DNA of 64,000 nucleotides from Okamejei kenojei (lineage: Eukaryota), in assembly GCA_035221665.1 (NCBI GenBank), contig CM069155.1, positions 29,512,001-29,576,000 on the forward strand. The letters run 5' to 3'. The stretch's first letter is position 1. Every line of letters begins with the position of its first letter. Positions 1 to 64,000 of this stretch are shown here, piece by piece. A program made the translations under genes and the position numbers. The notes under the pieces are model-generated. The model saw only the letters and a program-made list of their open reading frames with translations. It searched no databases and was not told where the DNA came from.

Positions 1-321
1 TAAGTCAGCCGCCTTCGATGTCCACCTCTACGGGACAGAACATACAAATATCCTGTACCATATCGGGTTCCAGTTCAGGCGCTAACGATGTCGCGTGGTA
101 CCAACAGATTCCTGGCAAAACTCCAAAGTATCTATTCTGGTATTATTCCAGCACCATTTATAAAGGCACGGACATTCCAGACCGTTTTTCCGTCTCGGTG
201 TCCGGCAGCTCTCTAATATTCGCAATATCTAGCGTTCAATCGGTGGATGCTGCTGATTATTACTGTGCCAAATGGGATAGTGGTTTATATTTCGGTAAAG
301 GAACGAGGCTGGGTATTGGCG
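1..321 (+). CDS. Ig light chain germline-joined VJ exon, copy 1 (5' end lies just upstream of the window)
   Basis: Frame from nt 3 reads SQPPSMSTSTGQNIQISC...WYQQIPG...DAADYYC-AKWDSGLY-FGKGTRLGIG. Both V-domain cysteines, the WYQQ motif and the J motif FGxG are in one ORF, ending at donor G|GTAAGT (321/322). No RSS between V and J. Confidence 0.95.
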
Positions 322-612
322 GTAAGTAAAATATATTCTTCCGATAGCGCGCTGTTTTCTTTTTATTCTAATGCAGATATTGTTTGAAAATAATGTATAT
401 AAGCTACGAAAATAATGTATTTGATTGTTTGCACTGATCAGAGCCATACTTCGCCTTCAAAGCATTTCAAAACGACCATGACCCGAGCAAGACTAACCCT
501 TACAGCGTCAGGGTTAGATTACATGGCAGCTGCGATTCCAAACAACATATTTTTTTACAGTTCACATAATTACTTCGGGCCGCACCATGAATTTAATGTG
601 CTCGAAAATGTG

Positions 613-620
613 ATGCAAAT
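613..620 (+). promoter_or_regulatory. Perfect octamer ATGCAAAT in the J-C intron (candidate intronic enhancer element)
   Basis: Exact Oct-1/Oct-2 motif; retained at the homologous site in copy 2 (21214-21221) and copy 3 (41537-41544). Confidence 0.45.
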
Positions 621-1534
621 CTTCCATTTTCCAATTTTTTCGCGTCTAATAATGATCGCGTACTACGCAGTGCGAATGGTGTAATTTCTCTCGGATTTTG
701 AAATAGTCAAGTAGATGAGGGTTGATGTACAACTGAAGTTGCATGGAATAGGGTTCGTCCAATACATTGCGGAAATATTCGCAGCGATTGTGCAGATATG
801 AAAGGAAATTGCTTGGGTAACGGGGGGTCAGCAACGTTAATTGTCAAAATTCCCGTTGACGATGTTTAAACAAGGATATCAAAATGCGAAATGCGAAGAG
901 AAAGTTTCGCACATTTCCTTCAGATATTTTGTTTAATACGTAGAGCAGCCTTTCTTGGACGCAACAATGCATTTCAAATTTAAATGAACATTCGATCTAC
1001 AATTCCATCCTTGCTTGTGAACGACATCTGCCAATCGGCAACCGTGGCTTTCGAAGAATAGTTTCTACATAATTTTGCCGAACTTAAATAGCGTCACCCT
1101 CCATCTCAATAGGTGCCGACAATTAAATAAGTTGAAATCTGTTATTATAAATTTCGCGACCGGGAATCGTTTATATCTGCTGATATATTTAGATAAATGT
1201 AAAGCCAGAGCTGTGTAGTAAAATGAACATTATAAAAGTTATAATAATGTATTCAGTTTTATTTAAAAAAGTGCAGCCATGATCTATCATATAAGCTTTC
1301 CCTGAGTTTATGCATAGGGTAGACAGGGTCTATTCTAGTTGCTTTCACGTACTTTATTTATGGTTCACCCAATTAAAAAAAAAACCACACTATAATGGTT
1401 GGAAATAGGTCGAGAATAAAACGACTTATTTCTACAAATGAATAAATGAGTGCTTTAATGAGATGTATTTTCGGAAAATAATGATATCTCAACGGCAGCA
1501 ATTCTCCAATTAAATGTGACTTCTTATTAAACAG

Positions 1535-1857
1535 ATCCTCGGGCACCGATCGTGACGGTCCTCCCGCCTTCAGCCGATGAAGTTACCTCAAAGGGCACCG
1601 CCACCCTGGTGTGCTTAGTGAACGGCTTTAATCCGGGCTCGGTGGCCGTTGAGTGGAGCGTTGACGGCGGTGCAAAAAATAGCGGCGTTGAGACCAGCCC
1701 GATCCAGCAGGATAAGGACAACACGTTCAGTCTCAGCAGTTACCTTACTCTGACAGCCTCAGACTGGAACTTACACGATCTTTACTCCTGTGTGGTTAAA
1801 CACCAGACTCAGTCAAACCCGCTGAAGACAACTATCATGAGATCCAGCTGTATCTGA
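1535..1857 (+). CDS. Ig light chain constant exon (lambda/type II-like), copy 1
   Basis: Acceptor ttattaaacag|AT gives a phase-1 junction G|AT = Asp. Reads DPRAPIVTVLPPS...ATLVCLVNGFNPG...VEW...FSLSSYLTL...YSCVVKH...RSSCI*, a C1-set domain with the penultimate interchain Cys. Confidence 0.95.
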
Positions 1858-2034
1858 TGTTTGAAGCGTGAGCTGACTCCCCAAAGTTAGTTAATCACCA
1901 TTGGGTTCTTTCATGTGACAAAGTTAGTCTTTGTCTTATGGAATTTTCATAAAGAAATGCCATTATAGTTGAAACCTTGATTTTTTTGACTTATTCGCTT
2001 TAAATGCAGTTATTTCGATATAATATCGTTCTTG

Positions 2035-2040
2035 AATAAA
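2035..2040 (+). terminator. Polyadenylation signal of IgL copy 1
   Basis: AATAAA about 180 nt after the stop; conserved in copy 3 (42893-42898). Confidence 0.7.
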
Positions 2041-3149
2041 GCATCACGTCGAGTCAATTGCGTTAACTAAAATAATGTATGTTGCTATTGTATCCAAGTT
2101 ATTATTTACAGACGTTGAGTAAAGTTTTAAAACTATTGTCAAATGCATCGCTGATTCTCTTTGATTTATTTGTGACCCCAAACATATGGATTGTGTTGTC
2201 TTATATATTTGAGCAAGAATCGCTGATTTATTTTCCCGTAATCTCGATCTCGCATTACAATCGTAGAACAGTAGTGAGTTTGTGCCACTCGTCAAGTTAT
2301 ACAATGCGTTCTAAACCAATCATGACAAACGTGATCTCAACTCCAATAAGAATCCCCAAAATTGGCAGGAAATTCTCGGCGAGGCGGCCTGAAGTAAGAA
2401 ATTGATTTGATGTTTCAGGTTGTTCTTTTGGTCAAAAATGTCCCTACCAACCCCACACCTTCATGGGTTAAAGGATTTGTTAAATATGTTTTTGTTCGTA
2501 AGGCGCACCGTCCATATTGTAAATAAAGGCAAGATATATGCACTCCTGGAAATTTACCGGAAACGACATTAATTCCCAACATATCAGCAAGATTCTGTAA
2601 AACTGATGGTTTGTTCCCACCTCCACTTTACACTATACACACTATGCACCGCACCTCCATCCTTTATCACCGAAGACAATGACATTAACCTATGACGGGA
2701 TTTGTATTCCAACTATGCTAAGATCTCGTTATCATCCAGTGTTCCATCACAATCATCGCTGCGGGTTGTGTTTTTTTTGAGGGAGCAAACAGCAAAGATT
2801 GAATCTTCCTAGTCTTGGCATTTCCATCTGTTCCTCTAGTGTCCAACTATCCATCAATATCAGACGATCGGATATGATTTGTTCCAATGACGCAACATTC
2901 AAAGCCACCCAACAGAGAGGATTCCAATGATTTACAACCTTGTTCGCGAAGACCTACCACTTTATTTCACTCCTACATAGCCAGATCCAGCATTATATTG
3001 TCCCCAAAACCAGTGTTCTATTGTTCGTCCCTCACAATAAGCATTTGTTTTCAATGTGTTCTCCTCTCATTCTTAGAAACTCTCAGAGAATCTTCTGCAG
3101 CCCAATTGAAATACGTTGCCCAGTTGCAGATTAAAGAAATGCGTAGTGT

Positions 3150-8945: not shown

Positions 8946-10320
8946 AGATCGGGATGGGGGGGGGGGGGGGGGGGGGGAATGAAGCAGTACTTGAAATCAA
9001 ATAAATCAATTTTCATACCGCTGAGTTGTAAGCTGCGCAAGCGAAATATGAGGTGCTATTATTCCAATTTGCGGGTGGGCTCATTTTGAGCGATAAGGAC
9101 AGTTAGCTCAGCATGGAAATGGGATGGAGTTAAAATGTTAGGTATTCATGTTATCTGGCCTACACTTCTTCCTCCCCTGCCACTTTCAAAATACCCTATT
9201 CCCTCCTACCAATTACTCTGTTGCCGCTGCTTTTTCTCCCAAGATGAGACGTTCCCGACTAGAACATCAGAGATGTCCTAATTCTTTAGGGAACTAGAGT
9301 TCCGCCCTTTTATCATAAATTAGACCATCACACATGTCGCATCTGGATCCAGCAGTTCCTCACTTGTTCCCAAGCCCCACAGTTGCGACAGGGACAGTTA
9401 TTATCCTCCAAAATTTTCTTCTCCTCCAAACTACTCACAACTTCCCATTCCACCCCCTTCCTGTGTACCGCAGTGACCATTCCCTTTGAAACTCTCTGGT
9501 TCCATCATCAGTTCCCACGCAAACCACCCTCGCCCCAGGGACTTTCCCTTGCAACCGCAGAAGAAGCAATCCTGTCCTTATACCTCCCACCTCGATTATA
9601 TCCAGGGACCCCGACAGTCGTTTCAGGGGAGGCAGTAGTTTACTTGCACCTTCTCCACCTCATCTATTGTTCGGTGTGGGCTCATATAGATTGGCAAGAG
9701 GAACTATGAACTTGGTGGTCGTTTCGCTGAACACTTGTGCACAGTCCGCCATGGCCTAAGGGGTCTTCTAGTTGCCGAAATATTTTCCCACCCATTGAAG
9801 AATGGTCTCGACAAGAAACGTCACACATTCCTTCTATCCAGAGATGCTGCCCGTCCCGCTGAGTTACTCCGGTTTTCTTTTATCGACCTTCCCGTACTGA
9901 CCATTCAGTGCTGTCGTTGTCAGAGTGAGGCCACATGCAAATTGAAAGAACAGCACCTCAAATGTCGCTTGGGCAACTTTCAACCCAGGGTTATGACTAT
10001 TGATTTATCTAACTTCAAGCTACTCTTGCATTCCCCCCCCCCCCCCCCCTCTCCCATCCTTGTAACCTTGAAGGATAATCCTTCCCATTATCGCCCTTTC
10101 CCCAGCCAACAATGGTCTATTTTGGGCTCCACCCTTCCTGAAGTCATCTGTTGCCAGCCCTGATTTGTTCTGGCCTTGTCATTTACAGTTTCCACCCCCA
10201 CCTCTTTCAGTCTGAAGAAGGCTTCCGATCCGAAATATCACCTATTAATTTTCTCCAGAGATGCAGCCTGACTCGCTGAGTTATTCCAGCATTTTTGTGT
10301 TCACTGTCGGTTTAAAGTTG
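8945..10320 (+). mobile_element. Penelope-like retroelement remnant (RT thumb + GIY-YIG endonuclease + terminal repeat) with an inverted 5' partial repeat
   Basis: Decayed YL.YTSS.P / GTFPCNRRR / LIYC...YIG / RFAEHL / CQSEATCKLKEQHL...RLG..QP..M.ID.SNF motifs. 8975-9090 is an inverted copy of the same ORF end. The terminal repeat carries a hammerhead-like motif. Confidence 0.8.
10212..10239 (+). ncRNA. Degenerate minimal hammerhead ribozyme motif in the Penelope terminal repeat
   Basis: CTGAAGA-A-GGCTTCCGATCC-GAAA-T-ATC with a weak stem II. Copies at 27456-27483, 54093-54120 and 56786-56813. Confidence 0.5.
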
Positions 10321-12170
10321 TTTAGCTAAATTTTTCCCTATCCTTGTATTTATTTTTGGGATTAATGTATTGTTGGTCAGACAATGCATCGATCGCCCAT
10401 CCCTATCTGCCATTGAGAAGCTGATGATAAACTACCTTGAAGCTGTCTGACCTGCTGAGCTACTTTGGGTTTTTGTGTCTATCTTCAGCAACTATAATCT
10501 TGTGATGCCATTCGTGTTATACATCCAAAGGTTGGATCAACGAAGTGTGAAAGATGATATCGTTCCAAGCCTGATGTGCCATTGCTGACAACTACATTAT
10601 TATGCAGAAGATAAACACAAAATGCTGAAATAAATCAATGGCCAAGCAGAAACTCTGGACACACAGGATAGGTGGCAGCTTCTGCACCAAGCGCCCAACG
10701 CAAATAAGCACCTGCAGTTCCTGGACTCTGCCGAGGGATTTGGATATGTTGGGAGAGTGAGCTGAGTAGTGGGAGATGCAATACAGCACAGGAAAGTGTG
10801 GAGTTATACATTTGGGTGGCAGGAATAAAGGCATAGACTATTTTCTAAATATAGAAATAGTTTACAAATCGGAGATACAAAGGGACTTGGGAGTGTTGAT
10901 GCAGGATTACCAAAATGTTAAATTGCAAGTCGAATCAGTAGGAAGGAATGTGAATGCAATGCTAGGATTTATTTCGAGAGGGCTAGAATACAAAACATAA
11001 ATGTAATGCTGAGGTTATATAAGGAACTGCTCAGACTGGATTTAGATTATTATGCACAGTTTAGGCCCCGTATCAGAAGAATTATGTGTTGGCTATAGAG
11101 AGGGTCCAGAGGAGGTTTACGAGAATGATACCAGGAATAAATGGGTTAATATGTGATGAGGGCACAGGGCTTGTACTCGCAGGAGTTTAGAAGGATGAAG
11201 GGATATCTCATTGAAACTTACCAAATAGTGAAAGGCTTATATAGAGTAAACATGGGGAGGATGTTTCTACTGGTGGGAGAATCTGGGGCCAGTGGCCATA
11301 GACTCAGCATTAAAGGATGTACCTTTAGAAAGGAGACGAGGAGGATTGCTTTTATTCATGGGATGGTGAATCTTTGGAATCAATTGCCAATAGAGAGGCA
11401 TGGATATTTTTACAGAGAAACATAGAAACATAGAAAATAGGAGCAGTAGAAGGCCTTTCGACCCTTGGAGCCTGCACCACCATCCAATATGATCATGCCT
11501 AATCATCCATAATCGGTACTCCGTTCCTGCATTTTCCCCCATATCCCTTGATTCCTAACTATATCTAACTCTCGTGAAAACATCCAATGAATTGGCCCCC
11601 ACTGCCTTCTGTGGCAGAGGATTCCACTGATTCACAACTCACTTTGTCAAAACGTTTCTTCTCATCGCAGTCCAAAATGGCCTACCCCTTATTCTTAATC
11701 TGTGACGCCTGGTTCTGTTCACCCCCAACATCAGGAATAATAATTCTGCATCAAGCCTGTCCAATTCCTTCAGAATTTTATATGTTTCTATAAGATCTCT
11801 TCTCATCCTTCTAATTTCAGTGAATTCAAGCCCAGTCGTCTCATTCTTTCATCATATGTCATTCCCACCATCCGGGGAATTAACCTGGTGACCTTACGCT
11901 GCACTCCCTCAATAGGAAGAATGTCCTTCCATAAATTAGGGGAAATTAAAACTGCACACAATAGTCCAGGTGTGGTCTCATCAGGGCCCTGTACATCTGC
12001 AGTAGAACCTCCTTGCTCCTATACTCAAATCCTCTCGCTGTGAAGGCCAACATGCCATTTCATTTCTTCACTGCCTGCTGTACCTGAATGCTTACATTCA
12101 GTGACTGATGTACAAGGACATCCAGGCCTCATTGCACCTCACCTTTTCCTAAACTGACACAATTCAGATT

Positions 12171-12269
12171 CAGGGGTCTGAAGAAGGGTCTCGACCCGAA
12201 ACGTCGCCTATCTCCTTCGCTCCTTAGATGCTGCTGCACCCGCTGAGTTTCTCCATCTTTTTGTGTACC
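12171..12269 (+). mobile_element. 99-bp Penelope-derived, hammerhead-containing insertion with 13-bp TSD
   Basis: Flanked by CACAATTCAGATT at 12158-12170 and 12270-12282. Absent from the paralogous CR1 at about 58720-58750. Confidence 0.85.
12174..12209 (+). ncRNA. Minimal type I hammerhead ribozyme
   Basis: GGGT (stem I) - CTGAAGA (12178-84) - extra A - GGGT ctcg ACCC (stem II) - GAAA - C - GTC (cleavage predicted after 12205) - GCCT (stem I'). Stem III is the palindrome ACGT. Confidence 0.72.
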
Positions 12270-13378
12270 CACAATTCAGATTATAATCTGCCTTTTTGTT
12301 CTTGCCACCAAAATGGATAACCTCACATGTAGCCACATTATACTGCATCTGCCATGCATCTGCCCACTCACCCAACCTATCCAAGTTAACCTACAGCCCC
12401 ATACCACCCTCCTCACACTGCCACCCAGCTTTGTGTCATCCGCAAACTTGGAGATGTTACTTTTAATTCCCTCATCTGGATCGTTAATACATATTGTAAA
12501 TAACTGGGGTTACAGCACTGAGCATTGCGGCACCCCACCAGTCATTGTCTGCCATTCTGAAAGGGACCCGTTAATTCCTTCTCTTCGCTTCCTGCCTGCC
12601 AACCAGGTATCCATGTCAATACCCTGCTCCCAAAACCATGTGCTCTAATTTTGCACACTAATCACTTGTGTGGGACCTTGTCAAAGGCGTTTTGAAAGTA
12701 CAGATACAACACATCAACTGGCTCTCCCTTTTCCATTCTACTTGTTACATCCTCAAAAGTTTCCAGAAGATTAGTCAAGCATGATTTCCCCTTCATAAAT
12801 CCATGCTGACTTTGTCCGATCCCTTCATTGCTTTCAAAATGTGCTGCAATTACATCTTTAATAATTGAAAAATGTAAAGTGGAGATTGACAGATCCTTGA
12901 TTGGTACAGGTGGTACGGATATAAGACATGAGAATGGGGTTGAGAGGTTAAGATAGATCTGCCATGATTGAATGGTTGACTAGCTTTGATGGGCCGAATG
13001 GCCTAATTCTGCTTCTAGAACAATGAATTTATGAACTTATGAATTATGCGTCTGGTTCTTGAATGCCTTGGTGACCATTTTGTTGAGGTTATACGTAAGG
13101 GGACTGATTAGAATGTATTCTGTAGATGGCACAGACTGTGGGCTTGTTGCACTTGTGGCAAAGAGAGACAAAGGATGGGATTATGTCATTGAAATAAAAC
13201 TTAATCTCACGCCTTTACGCTCATTAAACCAGAACTGATATAGACGGCGGTTAATAATAAGAAGTCATATGAATTTCTGCCCTTCCAGGTTCCTGTTTGC
13301 TATAGCTGGTCTGGGGAACTCGAAAGTCCTGGCACCTTTCGGGGTCATGAGCTAATGTGCAGTCTTTCTCTCTCTCTC

Positions 13379-13716
13379 TTTTTTTTTTTTTTCCTTTCAA
13401 AAAACATTATTCGACACAATCATATGATACAACACATCAAAACGTAATTAAAAATTACACTATATCAAAAAAGATCATTATAGTACAAAAGTACATTCAT
13501 TGTTTACAATACTCTCAACCCCACATGGTGACCAGCACCCACGGAAAGCCTCCAGAGTCCCCGTAGACACCACGAGTTCCCACTCCAGGGATACACGTGC
13601 ACGGACGTAGGCCCGAAAGAGGGGCAGGAAGCCGACTCTAGCCTGACCATCGACCGTCCGCTGCCTGGACCCGCAAATGGCCATCTTGGCCAGGCCCAGG
13701 AGCAAACCGACAGGGA

Positions 13717-13758
<42 letters not shown>

Positions 13759-16700
13759 CTCTCCCCACTCCCTGCCTTATGTCCGAACTCCAGGATTGCG
13801 GGACAAAAATGCAACCAGAACATGAGGAACAACCCCTTCAGATATTGATACAGGGGCAGTAACCTCTCACACTCCATATACACATGGAACACGGTCTCTT
13901 CCTCGCCGCAGAAAATACAGGCGGCGGACGAGCCCGTGAACCGACTCAAAAGTTTATTACATACCACCGCTCTGTGCAACACTCTCCACCCCAGGTCCCC
14001 AATGTAAAGGGGAACAATTCCCTTATAGAAGGACCCCCACTGGGGACCACCCCCGCCTTCAGGTGGTAACACCGTCCGCCATGGTGTGTCGGGATGGGAG
14101 ACGAAGGCAAGGAGGTGCAGAATGTGCAGGAGCATCCTGTACAGTGTGCGTCTCTTCGCATCACGAACTGGCATGCTGGTCATCTCAGAAAGGCTCAGAT
14201 TGTGTGGAGCCAGTGCCCGAGAATTATCCCGGAGCCTACGCCCGATGAGCAGATCTGATGGAGCAGGGGTAAGTTCAGTCAGAACCACTCCAGGCGCACG
14301 CCTCTCCTCGACACCCGCTAAGACAGGGTGAGGACCGGACACTCCCGCAGCCACGACATCCCCCTCCCCTCGTGGAGCAACACGCTGGCTGAAGACAGCC
14401 AAATTTCTCATTCTTAGCACATCCTGGTAGAAGACAGGCAAGCCCCTTAGGGCAGGTCGACTGATGCCCGCCACCGGGAGCCGTGAGACCCCCCTTAGGC
14501 AACGACCCCGACGGAAAAATACATGGCCAGAGCGTGCCATCTGGGGGGGGTTCTCTACATACATGTACCTCCGCAGAGTCCTGAGGCGGAGAGCCGCCAC
14601 CTGGGTACACACGCATACCAAGGACTGGCCGCCTTCCTCTAACGGGAGACTCAGGACACCCGCAGAAACGCAGTGCTTCCTATTTCCCCAAAAGAAATCT
14701 ACCAGCTTCTTCTGTAAAGCAGTTGCAAAGATAGAGGGTGGGACAAGAGTAGCCAGCCGTTACCATAACATGGAGGCCACCAGCTGGTTTATGACCAGAA
14801 CCCTCCCCCGAAAGAAAAGAACTCCAAGCAGGCCTGACCAGCGCCCCAGCCGGGCAACCACTTTCGCCTCCAACTCCTGCCAGTTTGCTGGCCAAGCATT
14901 CTCAGTGGGACTCAGGTACACCCCCAGATAGAGGAGGTGCGTAGTACTCCACGCAAACATTACCATCGCCACCGGCAGGGAGTCTACCTGCCACTGACCC
15001 ACTAAAATTCCAGAACACTTACTCCAGTTAATCCTAGCAGAAGATGCGGCCGAGAAAACCTTCTGGCAGTCACGCACCCTCCGCAGGTCACCAGGATCGG
15101 TGAACATAAGAAGTACATCATCGGCATACACCGAAAGAACCACCTCCACCCCCGGGCCAGGTAGGGCCAGGACTGTCAACCTCCTCCGAAGAAGACACAG
15201 GAAGGGCTCCACACAGACTGAGTACAACTGACCCGACATGGGGGCACCCCTGACGGACCCCCTTCCCAAAATGAAAAGGAGACAACTACGCACCATTAAC
15301 CTTCACAAGGCACTCCACTGCAGCGTACAAAAGCCGGACTCGGGCTACAAGATGCGGTCCAAACCCAAACACTTGCAATGTCCCGAAGAGGTATTCATGC
15401 TCTATCCTATCAAAAGCCTTCTCCTGATCAAGAGACAGAAAAACAGCTGACTGACCAGTACCCTGGGCTAGATGAATCAGGTCCCTAACCAGGTGGATGT
15501 TATCCTGAATGGACCGGCCAGGGATTGTATAGGACTGGTCAGGATGAATCAGTTGAGACAGCACGGAGCCCAGGCGATTTGCCATTGCCCGTGCAAAAAC
15601 TTTATACTCTGTACATAGGAGAGAGACCGGGCGCCAGTTCTTTAACAAGCGGAGTTCGCCCTTCTTAGGCAGCAGGATGACAACTGCCCTAAGCCATGAG
15701 AGGGGCATCTCCCCGGTCGCCAGGCTCTCCCCCAGAACCAACATGTAGTCAGTCACCCCCTAGGATATCCCAGAAAGCTCTAACAAACTCTACCATCAGC
15801 CCATCCAGCCCGGGGGACTTACCCCTCCTGAGCTGATGCAGGGCACGAGTCAACTCCTCCAAAGATAAGGTGCCATCAAGAAGATCGGCCACCTCCCTAT
15901 CTACAGTTGGTAGACCCTCTCACAGATCTTGCTGAGCCTCCCCGCTGAATCCCCCCTCCGCAGAGAACAGGGACCCATAAAAGGACCTGACCTAGGCACT
16001 GATCCTATTTGGATCAGTGACAGAGGAGTCATCATCTGCGAGCAGCTCCACGAGCTGTTTGTGAGCTCCCCGCCCTTTCTCCAGAGAGAAAAAGAAAGGT
16101 GAAGCTCGGTCCAGATCGTGCAGCATCTGGACCCGCGACCTCACGTAAGTGCCTCGGGACCGCTCAAGCAGCAGGCTCCTCAAAGCTTCCTTCTTCTTCT
16201 GAAACTCTCCCCATTCGCTGGAGTCTTCACCAAACCGACCCAGGCGAGACTCTGCATCCAGTATCTCCCTCTCAAGCCTCTCGACCGCTGAGTCCTGCCT
16301 TCCGGTCGACCCCCCACGTATAATCCTTACGAAAAGATGGATGTGAGCTTTCCCCCACATCCCGCTGCCTAAGGGAAGAGAAGCACCTCTGCCTCTCTCT
16401 CCACTTCACCAAAAACCGACTGAATGACTCCCGGAAAACACCGATCCTCCAGCAGCCTGTTATTAAAGTGCCAGTAGGCGGACCCAGCCCGAGCGCACGC
16501 TGGATTAAAATCCACGCGCACCAGACAGTGGTCCGAGCACGGCACCAGCCGCATTGAGGCCGCTGAGACACGGGAAACAAATGCTCGGGAAATATATATT
16601 CGATCAATGAGGGAACCACCACCCTCAAACCTCCGCGAAAAAGCAGTGGAATCCGGGTGGAGGTTCCGCCACGCATCAACCAACTCAAAGGAGTCCATCA

Positions 16701-18185
16701 AATCCTCTCAGCTTCCTCACTACAGCAGGGGCACACTGAGTACCAGAACGGTCTCGCGCCTCAAGTGTGCAATTAAAATCCCCACCAAGGAAGACACACT
16801 CTCCCCTATCAATAGTCCTTAACAGAGCAGTCATCTCCTGAAGTAGGCCGTTGGCCTGCATCATGCCAGAGCTAGGGGCATACACATTAATGAAATGCAA
16901 CGGCATGCCACCCAGGCTCATGGCCAGATGGAGCAAACGTCCTGGCACAACTTCTTGCACTTTTAAAACATTTGGCAGAAAGTACGGGGCCAACAGAAAG
17001 GCCACCCCACTAGAATTCGAGCTGAGATGGCTCATGTAGACACCCCCTTCCCACTCCAGTCGCCAGGTGGGGTTCGTCACTAACAATGGTATGCGTCTGT
17101 TGCAGAAAACACACCACAGATTTCCCCTCTCTAAGGACTGATAAAAGCTGAAATCTGCGAAAACTCGCTCTACTCCCATTTCAATTTAATGTAGCTACTG
17201 TGAATGCGCAGGCACACTAGATTGAAGACCCTCACACTTCACCTATACTCAAAAACTCTCTCTCTGAGGAACTCTAAAAAGTCACCGAACTGACTCTTCT
17301 CAGTCAGGAAGATCACTATCCTTGTTGTCAAGGATAGCCTCGCGAGTCTTAATTAAAACTGGCCAATCCTCCTACCCTTTTTTTGCAGCCCCCTTTTTTG
17401 TTCTGATGGTCCAGCTTGTTTTTAGGAACTCTCACACCTCACGGATAACACTTGCATGAGACATGGCCTTTGGAGCCTGGGCACTCGGCCAATCCACTCG
17501 CACCTGAAACAACAAGCTTATCAGCACAGCGCCCAGGGTCGTTGTCAGAAATCGAAAGACCAGAACCTCTCTGAAAGCTCGCTAATCCCGCTACACAAAC
17601 TGGCCCTGTCACTCTCCCCCTCCTCCGGACAACTACCACCCCCATGATCAATGCCGGGGAAGGGTCCCGAATCCCCTGACTGCAACAAGCAGCCCACTGA
17701 ATGGCTGGGCTCCAGCACTCTAGCATCACCCTCCACGTCTGGGCCTGGGGAAGAAAAAACAAGAGGCACCCCCAGGGGCCTGTGGTACAACTGGCACCCC
17801 GGAATCTGAAAGAGGATCACGACCCGAAACAGCCCCGAGCTCCACGCACCTAGAGCACCCTCTCCACAGGCAACACCCAGAGAATCTCCACTTGCTTTTA
17901 AAATCTCCCTGCCAACTCAGCCGGTGAGGCAGCACACCCTCCAGCACCTTCACTGGCACTGATATGGAGCACAGACTTGGTACACTAATGCCCCGAACCT
18001 CCCCCTTTGGGCTGACTCTGCTCACTCCCTGTCTCAGGGGGCACACTACCAGGGCAGCTAACCCCATCATCTGGCATGCCAACACCCTCAGTAGGCCTCT
18101 GAAACGAGGGGACCTCCTCCGACCCAGAGGACACACACCCAGGGGAGCTAACCTCAACGCCCGATGAGATAACTCCCTCGGAGGG
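13379..18185 (-). mobile_element. Tx1-clade (L1 superfamily) non-LTR retrotransposon, 5' part removed by a deletion
   Basis: APE (INVYAP, GGDFN, SDH), RT (NWRPVSLL, DQEKAFD, YADD) and C-terminal CIFC..ETVFHVYMEC motifs; poly(A) end next to (CT)n; frameshifted. Confidence 0.9.
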
Positions 18186-18186
18186 A

Positions 18187-18420
18187 GTTTTCCCAGATAG
18201 GGTGGTGGGTGTATGGAACAAGCAGCCACATGAGATAGTTGTGCCAGGAACTATCTCAACGTTTAAAAAACAGTTAGAACAAGTAAATTGATATAACAGA
18301 TTTGGAGGGATATGGACCCAATACGGGCAGGTGGGACGAGTGTGGATGGGACGTTGGCCGATGTGGGAAAGTTGTGCCGAAGGGCCTGTTTCCACACTCT
18401 ATGACTATGACTCTCTTTGA
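18187..18420 (+). mobile_element. CR1 3' end fragment
   Basis: F.Q.VVGVWN motif, 3' UTR and CTATGA tail; matches 38932-39165. Confidence 0.7.
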
Positions 18421-19960: not shown

Positions 19961-20036
19961 AGAGAGCCAGTGAGCAGATTTACACCCAATTGTCCTGGAA
20001 ACTGCCGCCCCATCGGAGCTCAGTCGGTTGATGAAA

Positions 20037-20553
20037 ATGTGTTAGTGGATCCGTGTGGCGGTTTGCGTTGGTTTTTTGCGCAGTTTGTGAGTATTTTACT
20101 TTTCTGTCATTATACTGATTATGTTCTCCTTATTTTGGGGTTTTATATCCCATACTTCAACAAATTTAACTATTTTCTTTTTTTCTGATATTTCTCTTTT
20201 TCAGAACTTCTTAAGCGCGGCAGTTACAGTAAGTCAGCCGCCGCCGATGTCCACATTATAGGACAGAAATTACAAATATCCTGCACCATTTCGGTCTCCA
20301 GTTCAGGCGCTAACTATGTCTCCTTTGGTACCAACAGATTCCTGGGCAAAACTCACAATTTCTTTTCTATCATTTTACCTGTGGCGATTTATAAGGCTCG
20401 GACAATCTCAGACCGTTTTTTCCATCTCGGTGTCAGGCAGTTCTTTAATAATCGCAATATTAGCGTTCAATCGGTGGTATGCTGCGGACTATTACTGTGC
20501 CAAATGGGATAGTGTTGTTTATATTTCGGTAAAGGAACGAGGTGGTTTTGGCG
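20037..20553 (+). pseudogene. IgL copy 2: leader (20037-20086) + joined VJ (20205-20553), frameshifted as assembled
   Basis: Homologous to copy 3 and retains AADYYCAKWDS. Has an in-frame TAG in the leader and many 1-nt indels. The C exon is not visible and would fall in the gap 21744-22243. May be error-rich sequence rather than a true pseudogene. Confidence 0.75.
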
Positions 20554-21743
20554 GTTAAGTAAAATATGTTCTTCGGACAGAGCGTGTTTTATTTTTTTTT
20601 AATGCAGATATTGCTTGATGTAACATCGTGATTTCACCCTTTTACGTGATAGAGCCAACTGTATTTCAGTGTTTAGATAGTGCGACCTTGCTATACAGAT
20701 GTCCCGAGTTCACTTTGGACATTAATTCAGTGAAAATGACTGCAAAAGGAGCGAATGTTTTGTTTTGCCGCTTTTACAGACGAACCCATTTCTCAACATT
20801 AAAGTATTTCTAGTGCCCAGGGAACCTTGGGCCTTGAACTGCTTAGGACTGTAGTACTTGGGATTCCCTTTTTAGGCATTGGGGTTTGGTTGAAACGGTG
20901 CGCGATGCGAAGGAATTTATATGTTTCTACGGTGTGTAGGTTAATATTGAAGCAGTGTTACACTCTGTAAGACCATTTACTCAAGTTGAATCACGGAAAA
21001 ATAATGTCTATAATTGTTTATCACTGATCAGAGCCATATTCCCACCTTTAAAGCATTTTCAAAACAACCATGACCCGAGTAAGACTACTCTTATTTTACA
21101 GTGTCAGTATTAGATTAGAAAATCTCGCAGCTTGCGATTCCAAAAACTATATATTTTTACAATTTACAGAATTATTTCGGGTCGCACTATATGGAATGCA
21201 CTATAACATGTGGATGCAAATCTTCAATTTTCCATTATGCTTACCATCCAATAATGTTAGCGTACTTCCCATTGCGAATGGTGTCATTTCGCCCGGATTT
21301 TGAAATCGTCAATTAAATGAGGGTTTTGATGTTGAATTGAAGTTGCATGCAATAGGGGGTTCGTTCAATAAATTGCGGGGGTAATATTGCAGTGATTGTC
21401 ATATATGAAAAGGACATTGCTTTAGTAACGGGGGGGTCAGCAACGTTAATATTCAACCACTGTCAATAATTCCGGTTGAGGGGTTTAACAAGGATATCAT
21501 AAAATGCGAAATGATGAAAGTGTCGCACATTTCTTTCAGAATGTTTGTTTTAATTCGTAGAGCTGCCTTTCGTGGACAGACGCAGTGCATTTCCAATTAT
21601 AAATGCTTATTCGAACTACAATCGTCATCCGTGCTTCTGAACGACGTCTGCGATATCTGTGACCGTGGCATTCGAAGACTAGTTTCCATATATCTTTGCC
21701 GAAATAAATTAGCGCCACCATACATCTGCCATTGGGGTGCCGA

Positions 21744-22243
21744 NNNNNNNNNNNNNNNNNNNNNNNNNNNNNNNNNNNNNNNNNNNNNNNNNNNNNNNNN
21801 NNNNNNNNNNNNNNNNNNNNNNNNNNNNNNNNNNNNNNNNNNNNNNNNNNNNNNNNNNNNNNNNNNNNNNNNNNNNNNNNNNNNNNNNNNNNNNNNNNNN
21901 NNNNNNNNNNNNNNNNNNNNNNNNNNNNNNNNNNNNNNNNNNNNNNNNNNNNNNNNNNNNNNNNNNNNNNNNNNNNNNNNNNNNNNNNNNNNNNNNNNNN
22001 NNNNNNNNNNNNNNNNNNNNNNNNNNNNNNNNNNNNNNNNNNNNNNNNNNNNNNNNNNNNNNNNNNNNNNNNNNNNNNNNNNNNNNNNNNNNNNNNNNNN
22101 NNNNNNNNNNNNNNNNNNNNNNNNNNNNNNNNNNNNNNNNNNNNNNNNNNNNNNNNNNNNNNNNNNNNNNNNNNNNNNNNNNNNNNNNNNNNNNNNNNNN
22201 NNNNNNNNNNNNNNNNNNNNNNNNNNNNNNNNNNNNNNNNNNN
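21744..22243. other. Assembly gap (500 N) joining two low-accuracy contig ends
   Basis: N run. Its flanks correspond to about 1120 and about 5061 of unit 1, so roughly 3.9 kb of homologous sequence is unrepresented. Confidence 0.9.
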
Positions 22244-26168: not shown

Positions 26169-26230
<62 letters not shown>

Positions 26231-27560
26231 AATGAAGCATACTTTGATCCAATTTTTTCATACCGCTGAGTTGTAAGGTCTGCGCAAGCGAAATATGGAG
26301 GTGCTATTATTCCAATTTGCATTTTGACGATAGGACAGTTAGCTCAGCATGGAAATGGGATGGAGTTAAAATGTTAGGTATTCATGTTATCTGGCCATAC
26401 ACTTCTTCCTCCCCTGCCACTTTCAAAATACCTATTCCCTCCTACCAATTACTCTGTCGCCGCCTGCTTTTTCTCCCAAGATGAGACGTTCCCGACTAGA
26501 ACATCAGAGATGTCCTAATTCTTTAGGGAACTAGAGTTCCGCCCTTTTATCATAAATTAGACCATCACACATGTCGCATCTGGATCCAGCAGTTCCTCAC
26601 TTGTTCCCAAGCCCCACAGTTGCGACAGGGACAGTTATTATCCTCCAAAATGTTTTCTTCTCCTCCAAACTACTCACAACATCCCATTCCACCCCCTTCC
26701 TGTGTACCGCAGTGACCATTCCCTTTGAAACTCTCTGGTTCCATCATCAGTTCCCACGCAAACCACCCTCGCCCCAGGGACTTTCCCTTGCAACCGCAGA
26801 AGAAGCAATCCTGTCCTTATACCTCCCACCTCGATTATATCCAGGGACCTGACAGTCGTTTCAGGGGAGGCAGTAGTTTACTTGCACCTTCTCCACCTCA
26901 TCTATTGTTCGGTGTGGGCTCATATAGATTGGCAAGAGGAACTATGAACTTGGTGGTCGTTTCGCTGAACACTTGTGCACAGTCCGCCATGGCCTAAGGG
27001 GTCTTCTAGTTGCCGAAACATTTTCCCACCCATTGAAGAATGGTCTCGACAAGAAACGTCACACATTCCTTCTGTCCAGAGATGCTGCCCCCGTCCCGCT
27101 GAGTTACTCCAGGTTTTCTTTTATCGACCTTCCCGTACTGACCATTCAGTGCTGTCGTTGTCAGAGTGAGGCCACATGCAAATTGAAAGAACAGCACCTC
27201 AAATGTCGCTTGGGCAACTTTTCAACCCAGGGTTATGACTATTGATTTATCTAACTTCAAGCTACTCTTGCATTCCCCCCCCCCCCCCCCCCCTCTCCCA
27301 TCCTTGTAACCTTGAAGGATAATCCTTCCCATTATCGCCCTTTCCCCAGCCAACAATGGTCTATTTTGGGCTCCACCCTTCCTGAAGTCATCTGTTGCCA
27401 GCCCTGATTTGTTCTGGCCTTGTCATTTACAGTTTCCACCCCCACCTCTTTCAGTCTGAAGAAGGCTTCCGATCCGAAATATCACCTATTAATTTTCTCC
27501 AGAGATGCAGCCTGACTCGCTGAGTTATTCCAGCATTTTTGTGTTCACTGTCGGTTTAAA
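26165..27560 (+). mobile_element. Duplicate Penelope-like remnant
   Basis: Colinear with 8945-10320. Confidence 0.78.
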
Positions 27561-27969
27561 GTTGTTTAGCTAAATTTTTCCCTATCCATGTATTTATTTT
27601 TGGGATTAATGTATTGTTGGTCAGACAATGCATCGATCGCCCATCCCTATCTGCCATTGAGAAGCTGATGATAAACTACCTTGAAGCTGTCTGACCTGCT
27701 GAGCTACTTCGGGTTTTTGTGTCTATCTTCAGCAACTATAATCTTGTGATGCCATTCATGTTATACATCCAAAGGTTGGATCAACGAAGTGTGAAAGATG
27801 ATATCGTTCCAAGCCTGATGTGCCATTGCTGACAACTACATTATTATGCAGAAGTTAAACACAAAATGCTGAAGTAAATCAATGGCCAGGCAGAAACTCT
27901 GGACACACAGGATAGGTGGCAGCTTCTGCACCAAGCGCCCAACGCAAATAAGCACCTGCAGTTCCTGGA

Positions 27970-34430: not shown

Positions 34431-34653
34431 AGGCACACTAGATTGAGACCCTCACACTTCGCCTAGACTCAAAAACTCTCTCTCTGAGGAACTCTAAAAA
34501 GTCACCGAACTGACTCTTCTCAGAGTCAGGAAGATCACTATCCTTGTTGCCAAGGATTGCCTCGCGAGTCTTAATTAAAACTGGCCAATCCTCCTACCCT
34601 TTTTTTGCAGCCTCCTTTTTTGTTCTGATGGTCCGGCTTGTTTTTAGGAACTC

Positions 34654-40581: not shown

Positions 40582-40663
40582 CTGATTGGCTTCGGCGAGC
40601 ATACCGGTTTGATTGGTTGGTATAGATAAACACAAGGTGACATCTCGTCTTTCCATTTATAAA
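40582..40663 (+). promoter_or_regulatory. IgL copy 3 promoter: two inverted CCAAT boxes + TATA
   Basis: CTGATTGG at 40582, TGATTGG at 40610 and TATAAA at 40658, about 80 nt upstream of the leader ATG; conserved in copies 2 and 4. Confidence 0.6.
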
Positions 40664-40739
40664 GAGAGCCAGAGAGCAAGATTACACGCCACTTGTCCTG
40701 GAAACTGCCGCCCCATCGGAGCTCAGTCGGTTAATGAAA

Positions 40740-40788
40740 ATGTCTTTTTGGATCCGTGTGGTCGGTGCGTTGTTTTTTTGCGCAGTTT
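40740..40788 (+). CDS. IgL copy 3 leader exon
   Basis: MSFWIRVVGALFFCAV plus 1 nt, then donor GTGAGT. A 120-nt phase-1 intron splices in frame to the V exon. Confidence 0.9.
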
Positions 40789-40908: not shown

Positions 40909-41253
40909 ACTTAAGCGCGGCAGTTACAGTAAGTCAGCCGCCTTCGTTGTCCACCTCTACGGGACAGAAAATACAAATATCCTGCACCATATCGGGTTCC
41001 AGTACAGGCGCTAACTATGTCTCGTGGTACCAACAGATTCCTGGCAAAACTCCCAAGTATCTATTCTGCTATTATTCCGGCAGCACCATTTATAAAGGCA
41101 CGGACATTCCAGACCGTTTTTCCATCTCGGTGTCAGGCAGCTCTGTAATATTCGCAATATCTAGCGTTCAATCGGTGGATGCTGCGGACTATTACTGTGC
41201 CAAATGGGATAGTGGTTTACATTTCGGTAAAGGAACGAGGCTGGGTATTGGCG
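40909..41253 (+). CDS. IgL copy 3 germline-joined VJ exon (intact)
   Basis: Acceptor ttctcag|AC. Reads (Y)LSAAVTVSQPPSLSTSTGQKIQISC...WYQQ...YYCAKWDSGLHFGKGTRLGIG, then donor GTAAGT at 41254. Confidence 0.96.
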
Positions 41254-41536
41254 GTAAGTAAAATATATTCTTCGGACAGCGCGCTGTTTTATTTTTCTTT
41301 TAATGCAGATATTGCTTGAAAATAATGTATATAATGCGACGAAAAAGTATATTTAATTGTTTGCACTGATCAGAGCCATATTCCGCCTTCAAAGCATTTC
41401 AAAACAACAATGACTCGAGCAAGACTAACCTTTATAGCGTCAAAGCAGCTGCGATTATTTGTGAAACAACATCTTTTTTTACCGTTCACAGAATTACTTA
41501 GGGCCGCACCATCAATTTAATGTACTCGAAAAAGTG

Positions 41537-41668
41537 ATGCAAATCTTCAATTTTCTAATTTTTTCCCGTCTAATAATGATCGTGTACTACCCATTGCGAA
41601 TAGTGTAATTTCTCTCGGATTTTTAAATCGTCAATTAGATGAGGGTTGATGTAGAACTGAATTTGCAT
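41537..41668. promoter_or_regulatory. Two perfect octamers in the J-C intron of copy 3
   Basis: ATGCAAAT at 41537-41544 and ATTTGCAT at 41661-41668. Confidence 0.45.
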
Positions 41669-42391
41669 GGAATTGGGTTCGTCCAATAAATTGCGGAAAT
41701 ATTCGCAGTGATTGTCCAGATATGAAAGGAAATTGCTTGGGTAACGGGGGTCAGCAACGTTAATATTCAACACTGTCAAAATTCCGGTTTACGCGTTTAA
41801 CAAGGGTATCAAAATGCGAAATGCCAAGAGAAAGTTTCGTGGACACAGCAATGCATTTCTAATTTAAATGAACATGCGAACTACAATGTCATCTTGCTTG
41901 TGAACGATATCTGCCAATCGGTGGCTTTCCAAGACTAGTTTCCATATATTATTGCCGAACTTAAATAGCGTCATCCTCCATCTCAAAGGGTGCCGAAAAT
42001 TGAATATGTTATTATAAATTTCGCGACAGCGAATCGTTTATATCTGCTAATATATTTATATAAATGTAAAGCCCGAGATGTGTAGTAAAATGAACATTAT
42101 AAAAGTTATAATAATGTATTCAGTTTTATAAAATAGAGCAGCCATGATCTATCATATAAGCTTTCCCTGAGTTTATGCATAGGGTAGACAGGATCTATTC
42201 TAGTTGCTTTCACGAACTTTGTTTATTGTTCACCCAATTAAAAACCCACACTATAATGGTTTGAAATAGGTCGAGAATAAAACGACATTTCTACAAATGA
42301 ATAAATGAGTGCTTTAATGAGATGTATTTTCGGAAAATAATCATCTCAACGGCAGCATTTCTCCAATTAAATGTGACTTCTTATTAAACAG

Positions 42392-42714
42392 ATCCTCGGG
42401 CACCGATCGTGACGGTCCTCCCGCCTTCAGCCGATGAAGTTACCTCAAAGGGCACCGCCACCCTGGTGTGCTTAGTGAACGGCTTTAATCCGGGCTCGGT
42501 GGCCGTTGAGTGGAGCGTCGACGGCGGTGCAAAAAATAGCGGCGTTGAGACCAGCCCGATCCAGCAGGATAAGGACAACACGTTCAGTCTCAGCAGTTAC
42601 CTGACACTGACAGCCTCAGACTGGAACTTACACGAACTTTACTCCTGTGTGGTTAAACACGAGACTCAGTCAAACCCGCTGAAGACAAATATCATGAGAT
42701 CAAGCTGTATATGA
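42392..42714 (+). CDS. IgL copy 3 constant exon (intact)
   Basis: Differs from copy 1 C by 3 aa; canonical acceptor; AATAAA at 42893-42898. Confidence 0.96.
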
Positions 42715-48565: not shown

Positions 48566-48606
<41 letters not shown>

Positions 48607-61673: not shown

Positions 61674-61732
<59 letters not shown>

Positions 61733-62140
61733 GTTGAGTAGGCTGGGACTCTATTCTTGGAGAGCAGGAAGATGAGGGGAAATATTATAAAAGTATATAG
61801 GGTCGTGAGATGAATAGATCGGGTAGATGTACAGTCCCTTGCCCAGAGTAGGTGAATCGAGGTCCAGGTTTATGGTGACGGGGCAAAGATTTAATAGGAA
61901 TCTGAGCGGTAACCTTTTCCTCAGAGGGTGGTGGATGTATGGAACAAGCAGCCAGAGGAGGTAGTTGTGCCAGGGACTATCCCAACGTTTAAAAAACAGT
62001 TAGGCAAGTAAATTGATATGACGGATTTGGAGGGATATGGACCCAATACGGGCAGGTGGGAGTTGTGTAGATGGGACGTTGGCCGATGTGGGAAAGTTGG
62101 GTGGAAGGGCCTGTTTCCACACTCTATGACTCTATGACTC
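60280..62140 (+). mobile_element. Degraded CR1 fragments, paralog of 37395-39165
   Basis: GSVLGP, ISKFADDT and 3' UTR motifs. Confidence 0.72.
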
Positions 62141-62389
62141 TCTTTGACTCCATGGCGGATCATGTAGCATCTGCGGATCGGCATTTGGGTGTTTCGCGTG
62201 TTCATATTCTCACGGTATTGCACGTTGCAAAGTTTAAAACGTGCAGCAATAAGAGAATGATGAGAACGGTGAGAGCAGGGACCTGTGTAATTAAACGATT
62301 AGGTAAACTTGCTAGTCGTAGTGATATGCCTACGTTCAGAGTGACATGCGCCCAATTGCAGCTCATTCTGTAGATGATACACATTGTAG

Positions 62390-62595
62390 TCACTTTAGTT
62401 TAATTTGGAGATACAGCGCGGAAACAGATCCTTCTACCCACTGATCAACAGTACCCGCACATTAACATTATCCTACACACTTTATGAACAATATATAATA
62501 TTAGCAAACCAATGAACCTCCCAATCTGTCTTTGTAGTGTGGGAGGAAACCGGAGCTTCCTGGGAAATCCCAGGCAGTTCATGGGGAAAACGTAG
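62390..62595 (-). mobile_element. SINE fragment (HE1/V-SINE-like)
   Basis: Same as 39445-39645. Confidence 0.6.
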
Positions 62596-63527
62596 TGGTG
62601 AAAGGATGAACGGTTAAGTTAATGGGATGGCTTGACCAGTCATGTGCACTGCTAAACTTATTTAGTTTAATGACAATTTAAGGACAATTATTGTTGATAA
62701 GTCTTTTTCTCACCCGCTATTTCCCGAAAACCGCTCTTCGTGTTTTTCCCTTGTCAGTTTTGCCAGATAGCTGGAGTTCCCGTATTCTATTCAACTTTAA
62801 TTGAATATGGATGTGCTGTGTGTAAAATTCCTGTCGTCCTGCCGTACTACAAAGTCGAAAGAACTCTGGAAGTGGACGGTGAGAGTCAATGTGACCCCTT
62901 TTCCTCACTCATATATGCATTAATTTGGTACAGGTAACCTTTCCACTTTGAGTCGTGGCAAGTTTTGCGAATTACTGCGCATTACAACATGAAACTTTTC
63001 CAAGCACGACACACATCGGGTGGTCAAAATTGCCTCCAAAACTGCAACTTTACTGAGATTTGCAGTGATGTTCTGTCCCCTCAGGTTCTTTCTGAATTAT
63101 CTGATACACAAGTAGAAGGGCAGCCTGTGGGATTTACGATTTTTAAAATTACAAAGATATTTAGATTTAATGTGATATATAATTAAACAAAAAGTGCCGA
63201 GGAGGTGACTGTTATCATGTTTTAGTCAGCGATACGGATTCAGTTGGACCGTTTAGATAAAATATTTATATTCCCATTTCATTGGTGATTAAACAGTTAC
63301 CAAATATAACATTGAATACTCGCAGACAATTTGTTTAATATATATACGCGGTGGGGTCATATTGAAAATTATAGATTGTTTGTTAATAAAGAAGGGGAAA
63401 CTGTGGCAATCCTTGTTATTCTGATGTATGTATGAGAATACATGAAGCTTTTTAGAAATACAAATCTCTAAAATAAGACCTGCATGTTTCACAGTGGCGA
63501 ATATTTTGAGGAAGAATCTGACAATTT

Positions 63528-63621
63528 CTGATTGGCTATCGACGAGCATAATATATATACCGGTTTGATTGGTTTGGAGAGATAAACACACGGTGAACAT
63601 CCTCGTCATTCCATTTATAAA
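63528..63621 (+). promoter_or_regulatory. IgL copy 4 promoter
   Basis: CTGATTGG at 63528, TGATTGG at 63566 and TATAAA at 63616. Confidence 0.55.
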
Positions 63622-63696
63622 AGAGCCAGAGAGCAAGATTACAACTCCACTTGTCCTGGAACTGCCGCCCCATCGGAGCTCAGTCGGTTAAATGAA

Positions 63697-64000
63697 ATGT
63701 CTTATTGGATCCGTGTGGTGTTCGGTGGCGTTGGTTTTTTGCGCAGTTTGTGAGTATTTTACTTTCCTAGACATTTATACTTATTTCTGTTCACCATCAA
63801 TTTGGGGTTATCTCCCACACTTCAACAAACTTAACAATTTTATTTTTACTCTGATATTTCTCTTTTCTCAGACTTAAGCGCGGCAGTTACAGTAAGTCAG
63901 CCCGCCTTCGATGTCCACCTTACGGGACAGAACATACAAATATCCTGTACCATATCGGGTTCCAGTTCAGGCGCTAACCATGTCGCGTTTTGGGTCCCAA
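63697..64000 (+). pseudogene. IgL copy 4: leader (63697-63749) + start of V exon (63872 to window end), with indels as assembled
   Basis: Homologous to copies 1 and 3. The leader is 53 nt instead of 49 and V has 1-nt indels, which may be sequencing error. Confidence 0.7.

What the first reader, a model, noticed from the sequence alone, without database searches (positions are those of the whole stretch)
1..64000. Tandem array of germline pre-joined Ig light-chain genes sharing one VJ junction
Seen: four same-strand clusters 20-23 kb apart. In copies 1-3, V runs directly into J with no RSS or intervening DNA, while the leader and J-C introns are retained, so these are not retrocopies. CDR3 is an 8-aa AKWDSGL(Y/H) in the two clean copies. 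Established: chondrichthyan Ig genes are organised in clusters and lambda/type II light chains are typically germline-joined. Inference: one ancestral RAG-type joining event in the germline was amplified by roughly 20-kb segmental duplications, giving a near-invariant, innate-like light-chain family.
Basis: partly seen in the sequence, partly recalled or inferred. Interest (0 to 1): 0.7.

Follow-up and report, generated by a model that had tools for sequence, protein, structure and literature searches.

The report
Skate pre-joined lambda light-chain array
These are ordinary skate antibody light-chain (lambda) genes whose two variable pieces are already fused in the inherited DNA, a known trait of sharks and rays; they are four of about three dozen neighbouring copies that differ in their antigen-contact loops, so they likely form a small inherited repertoire rather than one invariant receptor.

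Summary
The window holds 4 of 37 V-bearing Ig lambda (type II) clusters on one skate chromosome, near TOP3B and BCR. All 37 are V-J joined without RSS; 24 have intact spliced reading frames. Contigs from runs guessed to be RNA (three organisms) splice leader-VJ-C at the predicted introns; four DNA runs show no split allele. Germline-joined lambda is textbook for cartilaginous fish. The joint is not a recent event spread by 20-kb duplications: AKWDSGLH occurs in three skate genera, the 8-residue joint in sawfish, stingrays and three shark genera, and spacing runs 12-47 kb. The family is not near-invariant: three V groups, CDR replacement rates about twice framework (p 0.002), and AGY-serine bias typical of hypermutation targets. 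Copy 2 has no C exon, borders a 500-N run and carries a consensus-error signature, so it may be an assembly duplicate. Side results: the window's V group lacks the Ig octamer yet is spliced, and every light-chain gene found in this assembly is pre-joined, with no kappa found (weak: the assembly may miss Ig genes). No earlier scan note covers this sequence.

The parts
1..321 (+). Copy 1 joined V-J exon (starts 21 bases before the window); CDR3 AKWDSGLY at 267-290; intact
   Evidence: L029, full frame of 237 aa
322..1534 (+). Copy 1 J-C intron, GT..AG, 1213 nt
1535..1857 (+). Copy 1 C-lambda exon with stop; AATAAA at 2035
8956..18185 (.). Transposon-filled block 98.5% identical to 26208-35406 (31 transitions, 25 transversions, 49 gap openings): very recent duplication or the two haplotypes laid in tandem
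20031..20554 (+). Copy 2 leader, leader intron and joined V-J; many 1-nt indels; V type of paralogs L026/L027; no C exon in the assembly; low-quality sequence, possibly an assembly duplicate
21744..22243 (.). 500-N run (assembly gap or masking, cannot be told apart); indel density rises towards it from both sides
26208..35406 (.). Second copy of the 9.2-kb transposon block
40583..40663 (+). Copy 3 promoter region: two TGATTGG (reverse CCAAT) boxes at 40583 and 40610, TATA-like TTTATAAA at 40656, no ATTTGCAT octamer
40734..40788 (+). Copy 3 leader exon
   Evidence: joint 40788>40909, GT..AG
40909..41253 (+). Copy 3 joined V-J exon; CDR3 AKWDSGLH at 41199-41222; intact
41254..42391 (+). Copy 3 J-C intron, 1138 nt, skipped in contigs of 4 of 4 runs laid
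42392..42714 (+). Copy 3 C-lambda exon with stop; AATAAA at 42893
63692..64000 (+). Copy 4 leader (63692-63749), intron and 5' part of V (from 63872); joined V-J (AKWDSGLH) and C lie beyond the window; a distinct gene from copy 1 (30 transitions) with likely consensus-error frameshifts

Best explanation
The window is part of a skate immunoglobulin lambda (type II) light-chain locus of leader-VJ-C miniclusters whose V and J are fused in the genome and whose transcripts are spliced; the fusion is likely an ancient germ-line joining event, and the copies likely diversify by birth-and-death duplication with selection on the CDRs, then by somatic hypermutation in B cells. Shown: gene anatomy, joined state of all 37 V genes, splicing of this gene type, CDR-biased replacement, AGY-serine bias, cross-species sharing of the junction. 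Inferred: that RAG made the joint, that the products pair with IgM/IgW heavy chains, that AID mutates them, and that a B cell picks one cluster by transcriptional choice because no recombination step is available.
For: Nearest named proteins are skate 'lambda-1 light chain-like' at 81-88% identity. The C exon is 62-70% identical to the C exons of the classical WYWQKPG-type V genes in the same locus, against 42-48% to sigma and sigma-2 C. TOP3B lies 0.77 Mb and a BCR domain 3.9 Mb from the array on the same contig; that these flank human IGL is recalled. All 37 lambda V have J within 64 nt of the Cys codon with no heptamer (parsed 36; L021 read by eye). Contigs skip the 120-nt leader intron (exactly in 3 of 4 runs, with 3 other letters in the fourth) and the 1138-nt J-C intron (4 of 4 runs; three organisms, three studies). 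Four DNA runs gave no joint and no RSS among the 21 of 25 loose ends shown. CDR pN 0.171 vs framework 0.070 with pS 0.113 vs 0.154 in 6 intact group A genes (permutation p 0.002); 0.235 vs 0.106 in 10 group B genes (p 0.0002). Ser AGY:TCN is 53:26 in CDRs and 23:190 in frameworks over 16 genes. [quoted passage not shown]
Against: CDR pN/pS is about 1-1.5, which rests on few synonymous sites and fits relaxed constraint as well as positive selection; the genes are related, so the permutation p-values are optimistic. The RNA runs are guesses of unknown tissue, and their contigs differ from copy 3 by several percent, so they show this gene type, not this copy. The best DNA run may be the assembly's own sample; contigs drop rare variants; tissue of the DNA is unknown. 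Somatic mutation was not observed here. Gene counts are inflated by likely duplicates (L020, L021, L025, copy 2). The V tree leaves the base of the lambda groups unresolved.
Confidence: 0.88

Rival explanations
1. One reading: one fairly recent RAG joint was amplified by about 20-kb duplications into a near-invariant, innate-like light chain.
For: CDR3 is AKWDSGL(H/Y) in 7 of 9 group A V exons and AKWDSG(L/V/I)(H/Y) in Leucoraja, Amblyraja and Rhinoraja proteins; group A plus those skate proteins form one clade (100/100). Germline-joined chains used early in life are described in nurse shark (PMC2193156 section 20). One 9.2-kb block is 98.5% identical between two units.
Against: 8 distinct CDR2 and 6 distinct CDR1 among 9 genes; CDR pN/pS not below 1; spacing 12-47 kb; the 8-residue joint is shared with group B and with sharks. 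A review reports that lambda overtakes sigma-2 in adult skate (PMC5192425 passage), which does not fit a neonatal-only role.
Confidence: 0.12
2. Part of the four-copy pattern is an assembly artefact: copy 2 and the duplicated 9-kb block are a low-coverage contig end or second haplotype, so the window really holds three genes.
For: Copy 2 differs from L027 mostly by transversions and 1-nt indels; errors rise towards the 500-N run from both sides; the same pattern sits beside other 500-N runs (L021 vs L036: 0 transitions, 9 transversions, 23 gaps; L025 vs copy 4: 1, 39, 80; L020 vs L026: 12, 20, 54).
Against: Copy 2 has the V of L026/L027, not of copy 3, lacks a 3.5-kb segment found upstream of L027 and copy 3, and lies between the same two N runs as L027, so it may be a real paralog that is merely badly polished. 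Copies 1, 3 and 4 differ by 30-44 transitions per 1.4 kb and are distinct genes, so the array does not collapse to one locus.
Confidence: 0.45
3. The joined exon is a primordial, never-split V gene rather than a re-joined one.
For: No split lambda is known in cartilaginous fish and none was found here; single-exon VJ genes such as UrIg2 exist (PMC12227049 passages).
Against: Lambda is split in tetrapods and its sister kappa is split in sharks, where joined kappa genes derive from split ones (PMC2193156); CDR3 lengths of 6, 8, 9 and 11 in this locus fit several old joints or later codon indels.
Confidence: 0.07
4. The joined state comes from somatically rearranged B-cell DNA in the assembly sample, or from retrocopies.
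For: None found.
Against: Both introns are kept; 37 of 37 genes are joined; the same junction peptide is in gene models of three skate genera; no split form in DNA contigs of three organisms.
Confidence: 0.01

Closest known systems
Chondrichthyan Ig lambda / type II / NS3 light-chain clusters (nurse shark NS3, skate type II; PMC5192425, PMC4279169 and PMC5985310 passages)
   Same: One V, one J, one C per cluster; all V-J joined in the germline; leader and J-C introns; lambda-type C exon.
   Different: About three dozen clusters against six in nurse shark; here mapped 12-47 kb apart in two blocks within 1.35 Mb, whereas linked nurse shark IgH clusters are 120 kb apart (PMC2435157 passage). The window's V group has a 7-8 residue CDR2 and no exact octamer.
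Raja erinacea type I (sigma-2) light chains, at least 89 all-joined clusters (PMC2192082, abstract)
   Same: Skate, all germline-joined, sequence groups, replacement changes concentrated in CDRs, expressed: the same logic of diversity without rearrangement.
   Different: Another isotype; only 3 sigma-2 genes are found in this assembly, on other contigs.
Nurse shark germline-joined kappa (NS4) genes (PMC2193156, abstract, passages, sections 3 and 20)
   Same: Fused VJ with RSS gone and leader intron kept.
   Different: Those joints are recent, multiple and datable against split sisters, and keep the octamer; here no split sister exists and the joint type is shared across rays and sharks.
[quoted passage not shown]
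   Same: 81-88% identical V, same AKWDSG(L/V/I)(H/Y) junction, many paralogs per species.
   Different: Automatic annotations; I did not see their DNA, so their joined state is inferred from the proteins.

Membership tests
Chondrichthyan Ig lambda (type II) light chain | V-J-C minicluster with one C exon | tested here: met
   Copies 1, 3, 4 and the locus map; copy 2 lacks C; 5 C exons had no V in the stretch fetched
Chondrichthyan Ig lambda (type II) light chain | V and J joined in the genome, no RSS | tested here: met
   37 of 37 lambda V; no joint in 4 DNA runs
Chondrichthyan Ig lambda (type II) light chain | Lambda-type C region, closer to lambda than to sigma or sigma-2 | tested here: met
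   62-70% to the C exons of the classical-type V genes in the locus vs 42-48% to sigma/sigma-2; labels come from automatic annotation and recalled motifs, not curated references
Chondrichthyan Ig lambda (type II) light chain | Synteny with the tetrapod IGL region (TOP3B, BCR) | tested here: met
   TOP3B exon at C25:28.55 Mb, BCR domain at C25:25.39 Mb; human gene order recalled
Chondrichthyan Ig lambda (type II) light chain | Spliced leader-VJ-C transcript | tested here: met
   contigs of runs guessed to be RNA; gene type, not the exact copy
Chondrichthyan Ig lambda (type II) light chain | Octamer ATTTGCAT in the V promoter (recalled as typical of Ig light chains; stated for shark kappa in PMC2193156) | tested here: not met
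   0 of 13 group A genes, 2 of 11 group B entries at the promoter position (one gene and its likely duplicate), 13 of 13 group C. Not treated as defining for lambda, since isotype is set by sequence
Chondrichthyan Ig lambda (type II) light chain | Somatic hypermutation and pairing with heavy chain | not testable with these tools
   Only the codon bias was measured; no raw reads of matched individuals
Invariant innate-like receptor (IgM1gj-partner type) | One or few sequences under purifying selection in CDRs | tested here: not met
   CDR pN/pS about 1-1.5 vs 0.45 in frameworks; 24 intact genes in three V groups
Lambda-2 isotype (PMC5985310) | Short CDR1 (5-7) and CDR2 (2-3); not found in cartilaginous fish | tested here: not met
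   CDR1 8, CDR2 7-8 by my anchors; definition from passages
RAG-made germline joint | P/N nucleotides or trimming relative to a split sister gene | not testable with these tools
   No split relative found

The most novel reading that the evidence does not exclude
Skates may have no rearranging light-chain gene at all: kappa lost, and lambda, sigma and sigma-2 all pre-joined. Their main light-chain repertoire would then be a single RAG-free array of about two dozen ready-to-transcribe lambda genes, two of whose three V groups have traded the Ig octamer for CCAAT-box promoters. One-chain-per-B-cell would have to come from promoter choice, as in olfactory receptor or protocadherin arrays, and this mapped locus makes that directly testable.
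Probability: 0.3. Interest if true: 0.65.

Novelty: new member of a known kind. Interest (0 to 1): 0.27.

Why it matters
The core finding is textbook: germline-joined lambda clusters in a cartilaginous fish. What the locus adds is a map: three V groups in two facing blocks, an old shared junction, an octamer-less promoter in the expanded groups, and gene-specific CDR tags. These allow single-cell tests of how a B cell limits light-chain expression without V(D)J recombination, a question the shark allelic-exclusion literature leaves open (PMC2435157 passages). It is also a caution: Ig arrays in this assembly contain error-laden duplicates next to 500-N runs.

Tried and rejected
RSS scan (heptamer with 1 mismatch, 11-13 or 22-24 spacer, nonamer with 2 mismatches) over 42 loci: 10 rows, all upstream of V, in the leader or in the J-C intron, none at a junction, none in a window copy. 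No run was on record as RNA (no RNA holder listed); the runs laid are guesses. PDB search returned only mammalian antibodies. A protein search with a turtle kappa V listed no chondrichthyan among the 120 of 365 rows shown, so no shark kappa query was obtained; kappa absence rests only (150 of 188 and 147 of 296 candidates scored). Lambda-2 was rejected on CDR lengths. A recalled idea that type II genes lack the leader intron was dropped: all three V groups have one. The bacterial promoter scan does not apply. The careful C-region tree did not finish; only the quick tree was seen. Three papers were not held, including Criscitiello and Flajnik 2007 and Hohman 1993, which may already describe the long-CDR2 V group or its promoter. 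Nine literature searches listed no paper mapping the skate lambda locus or its octamer loss; most subscription journals are not covered. Three of 15 supplementary files of PMC5985310 were not searched.
Full report
Observation. The window has four + strand Ig light-chain units. Copy 1 gives an intact 237-aa and copy 3 an intact 240-aa leader-VJ-C frame when spliced at GT..AG sites. In both, 24 nt separate the Cys and Phe codons (AKWDSGLY, AKWDSGLH). Copy 4 continues past the window and is joined as well. Copy 2 is joined but riddled with 1-nt indels and has no C exon. V starts are 20,230, 20,699 and 22,963 bases apart.

What the locus is. The window lies at G000:C25:29.512-29.576 Mb. A DNA search found 19 V matches, all on C25; protein searches with V and C extended the locus to a second block at 30.40-30.66 Mb on the opposite strand. 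I fetched 42 candidate lambda regions: 37 carry a V and 5 showed only a C exon. The V genes fall into three groups: A (13, the window type), B (11, same long CDR2, CDR3 such as AVWKDALI) and C (13, short CDR2, WYWQKPG framework, CDR3 of 6, 9 or 11 residues). All 37 have J directly after the Cys codon (parsed 36; L021 read by eye). 24 of 37 have intact frames (6 A, 10 B, 8 C). The nearest named proteins are skate 'lambda-1 light chain-like' models at 81-88%, so the organism is a skate. TOP3B lies 0.77 Mb and a BCR domain 3.9 Mb away on the same contig, which matches the human IGL neighbourhood as I recall it.

Joined state and expression. A relaxed RSS scan found no site at any junction. Contigs of four DNA runs from three organisms showed no joint over the copy 3 V exon; of 25 loose ends 21 were shown, and those at the junction were joined group B sequences. 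Contigs of four runs guessed to be RNA (three organisms, three studies) cover only exons and skip the leader intron (3 of 4 exactly; the fourth with 3 other letters) and the 1138-nt J-C intron (4 of 4); one contig each in X15 and X18 spans leader, VJ and C. They differ from copy 3 by several percent, so they show the gene type, in unknown tissue.

Age of the joint. AKWDSG(L/V/I)(H/Y) recurs in Leucoraja, Amblyraja and Rhinoraja proteins, and these group with group A at 100/100 support. Of 44 chondrichthyan relatives examined, the script parsed 42: 26 with 8 residues, 15 with 9, 1 mis-parsed; 2 were not parsed. The 8-residue A-x-W-x5 joint is in sawfish, stingrays, Scyliorhinus, Pristiophorus and, read by eye, Heptranchias; 8 rows from six other shark genera have 9. 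If the 8-residue joint arose once, it predates the shark-ray split (inference). Codon indels also occur in CDR1 and CDR2, so length alone cannot count joining events, and RAG involvement cannot be tested without a split sister gene.

Not near-invariant. Nine group A V exons (two of them identical, L026 and L027) are 71-100% identical and show 6 CDR1, 8 CDR2 and 4 CDR3 variants. In the 6 intact group A genes pN is 0.171 in CDRs and 0.070 in frameworks (permutation p 0.002) while pS does not differ (0.113 vs 0.154, p 0.74); group B gives 0.235 vs 0.106 (p 0.0002); the group A C exon has pN 0.021. This fits relaxed or positive selection on CDRs; the genes are related and synonymous sites are few. 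Serine codons are AGY:TCN 53:26 in CDRs and 23:190 in frameworks, and RGYW/WRCY targets number 10.5 vs 7.1 per 100 nt (16 genes), a pattern I recall as typical of hypermutated V genes. The same logic was published for skate sigma-2 genes (PMC2192082, abstract).

Duplication and assembly quality. Spacing along groups A and B is 12-47 kb. Shared sequence among copies 1, 3 and 4 is limited to a few kb around each gene at about 83-94%, and the spacers are largely different LINE- and LTR-type remnants. The only near-identical block (9.2 kb, 98.5%) precedes copies 2 and 3. Four 500-N runs lie in the 394 kb examined, and indel-riddled genes lie next to three of them; the fourth is followed by an indel-rich transposon block. 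Copy 2 vs L027 gives 16 transitions, 87 transversions and 143 gap openings; L021 vs L036 gives 0, 9 and 23; L025 vs copy 4 gives 1, 39 and 80; the clean pair L026/L027 gives 24, 23 and 4. These lesions are best read as low-coverage consensus errors, so the frameshifts are not evidence of pseudogenes, and some copies are probably duplicates. Whether the N runs are gaps or masking cannot be told. Copies 1, 3 and 4 are distinct genes. L027 has the far-upstream region of copy 3 and the gene body of L026: unequal crossing-over, conversion or an assembly chimera.

Side results. The exact octamer is at the promoter position in 13 of 13 group C genes, in 2 of 11 group B entries (L036 and its likely duplicate) and in 0 of 13 group A genes, which have two TGATTGG boxes instead. 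Group A is nevertheless spliced. The 3 sigma-2 and 2 intact sigma genes found elsewhere are joined too. A turtle kappa-type V query hit only C25 lambda genes (30 of 30 matches at E up to 1e-12), and a published table lists little skate kappa as not determined (PMC5985310). This absence is weak evidence: the assembly shows 3 sigma-2 genes where at least 89 were reported in Raja erinacea, so it may miss Ig genes.

Comparison and verdict. [quoted passage not shown] PMC12227049 (passages and supplement search) says the genomic distribution of the miniclusters is not well known, so the map has modest value. PMC2435157 and PMC3308330 were seen as passages. Earlier scan notes held nothing on this sequence. 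Verdict: a new member of a known kind; interest 0.27.

Noticed in passing
window 40583-40663 and the matching promoters of all 13 group A genes: The Ig octamer is absent and two TGATTGG boxes are present. Near-octamers in L023, L034 and L046 suggest stepwise decay; group C keeps it in 13 of 13.
   Followed up: partly
L060-L064 (G000 C26, C581, C28): Sigma-2 (3) and sigma (2 intact, plus decayed fragments in L104/L065) light-chain genes are also V-J joined; no kappa was found in the assembly.
   Followed up: partly
G000:C25:29330242-29388612 (L021-L025): An inverted block between two 500-N runs mirrors parts of 29.574-29.686 Mb, with error-rich ends: likely an uncollapsed haplotype.
   Followed up: partly
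G000:C26:38.48 Mb: A second BCR-type domain lies 1.5 Mb from a sigma-2 gene, echoing BCR beside lambda on C25: possibly paralogous regions from genome duplication.
   Followed up: no
L028 V exon (G000:C25:29496585): 5' part resembles the window type, while CDR2-FR3 is closer to L023/L034 and CDR3 is AKWEDGYF: a possible mosaic gene.
   Followed up: partly
L050-L052, L056-L058, about 95 bases upstream of V: An RSS-like CACAGTG-22-ACCCAAACC on the minus strand overlaps the leader exon and its donor; probably coincidental.
   Followed up: no
L022, L024, L033, L035, L038: C-lambda exons without a V in the DNA fetched; L033 is 96% identical to the copy 3 C exon over 318 bases.
   Followed up: partly
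window 3565-6529, 13500-18200, 30700-36550, 46295-47300, 50275-52600: Retrotransposon remnants by ORF content: reverse-transcriptase-like frames and an LTR-type pol fragment; family labels would be from recall.
   Followed up: no
window 52706-55357 and 55357-58062: A local tandem duplication of about 2.7 kb at 96-98% identity in the spacer between copies 3 and 4.
   Followed up: no
G000 contigs C176, C988, C633, C67, C241, C268, C1046: Dozens of closely spaced distant V-type exons (28-39% identity), probably TCR or other V arrays on unplaced contigs.
   Followed up: no
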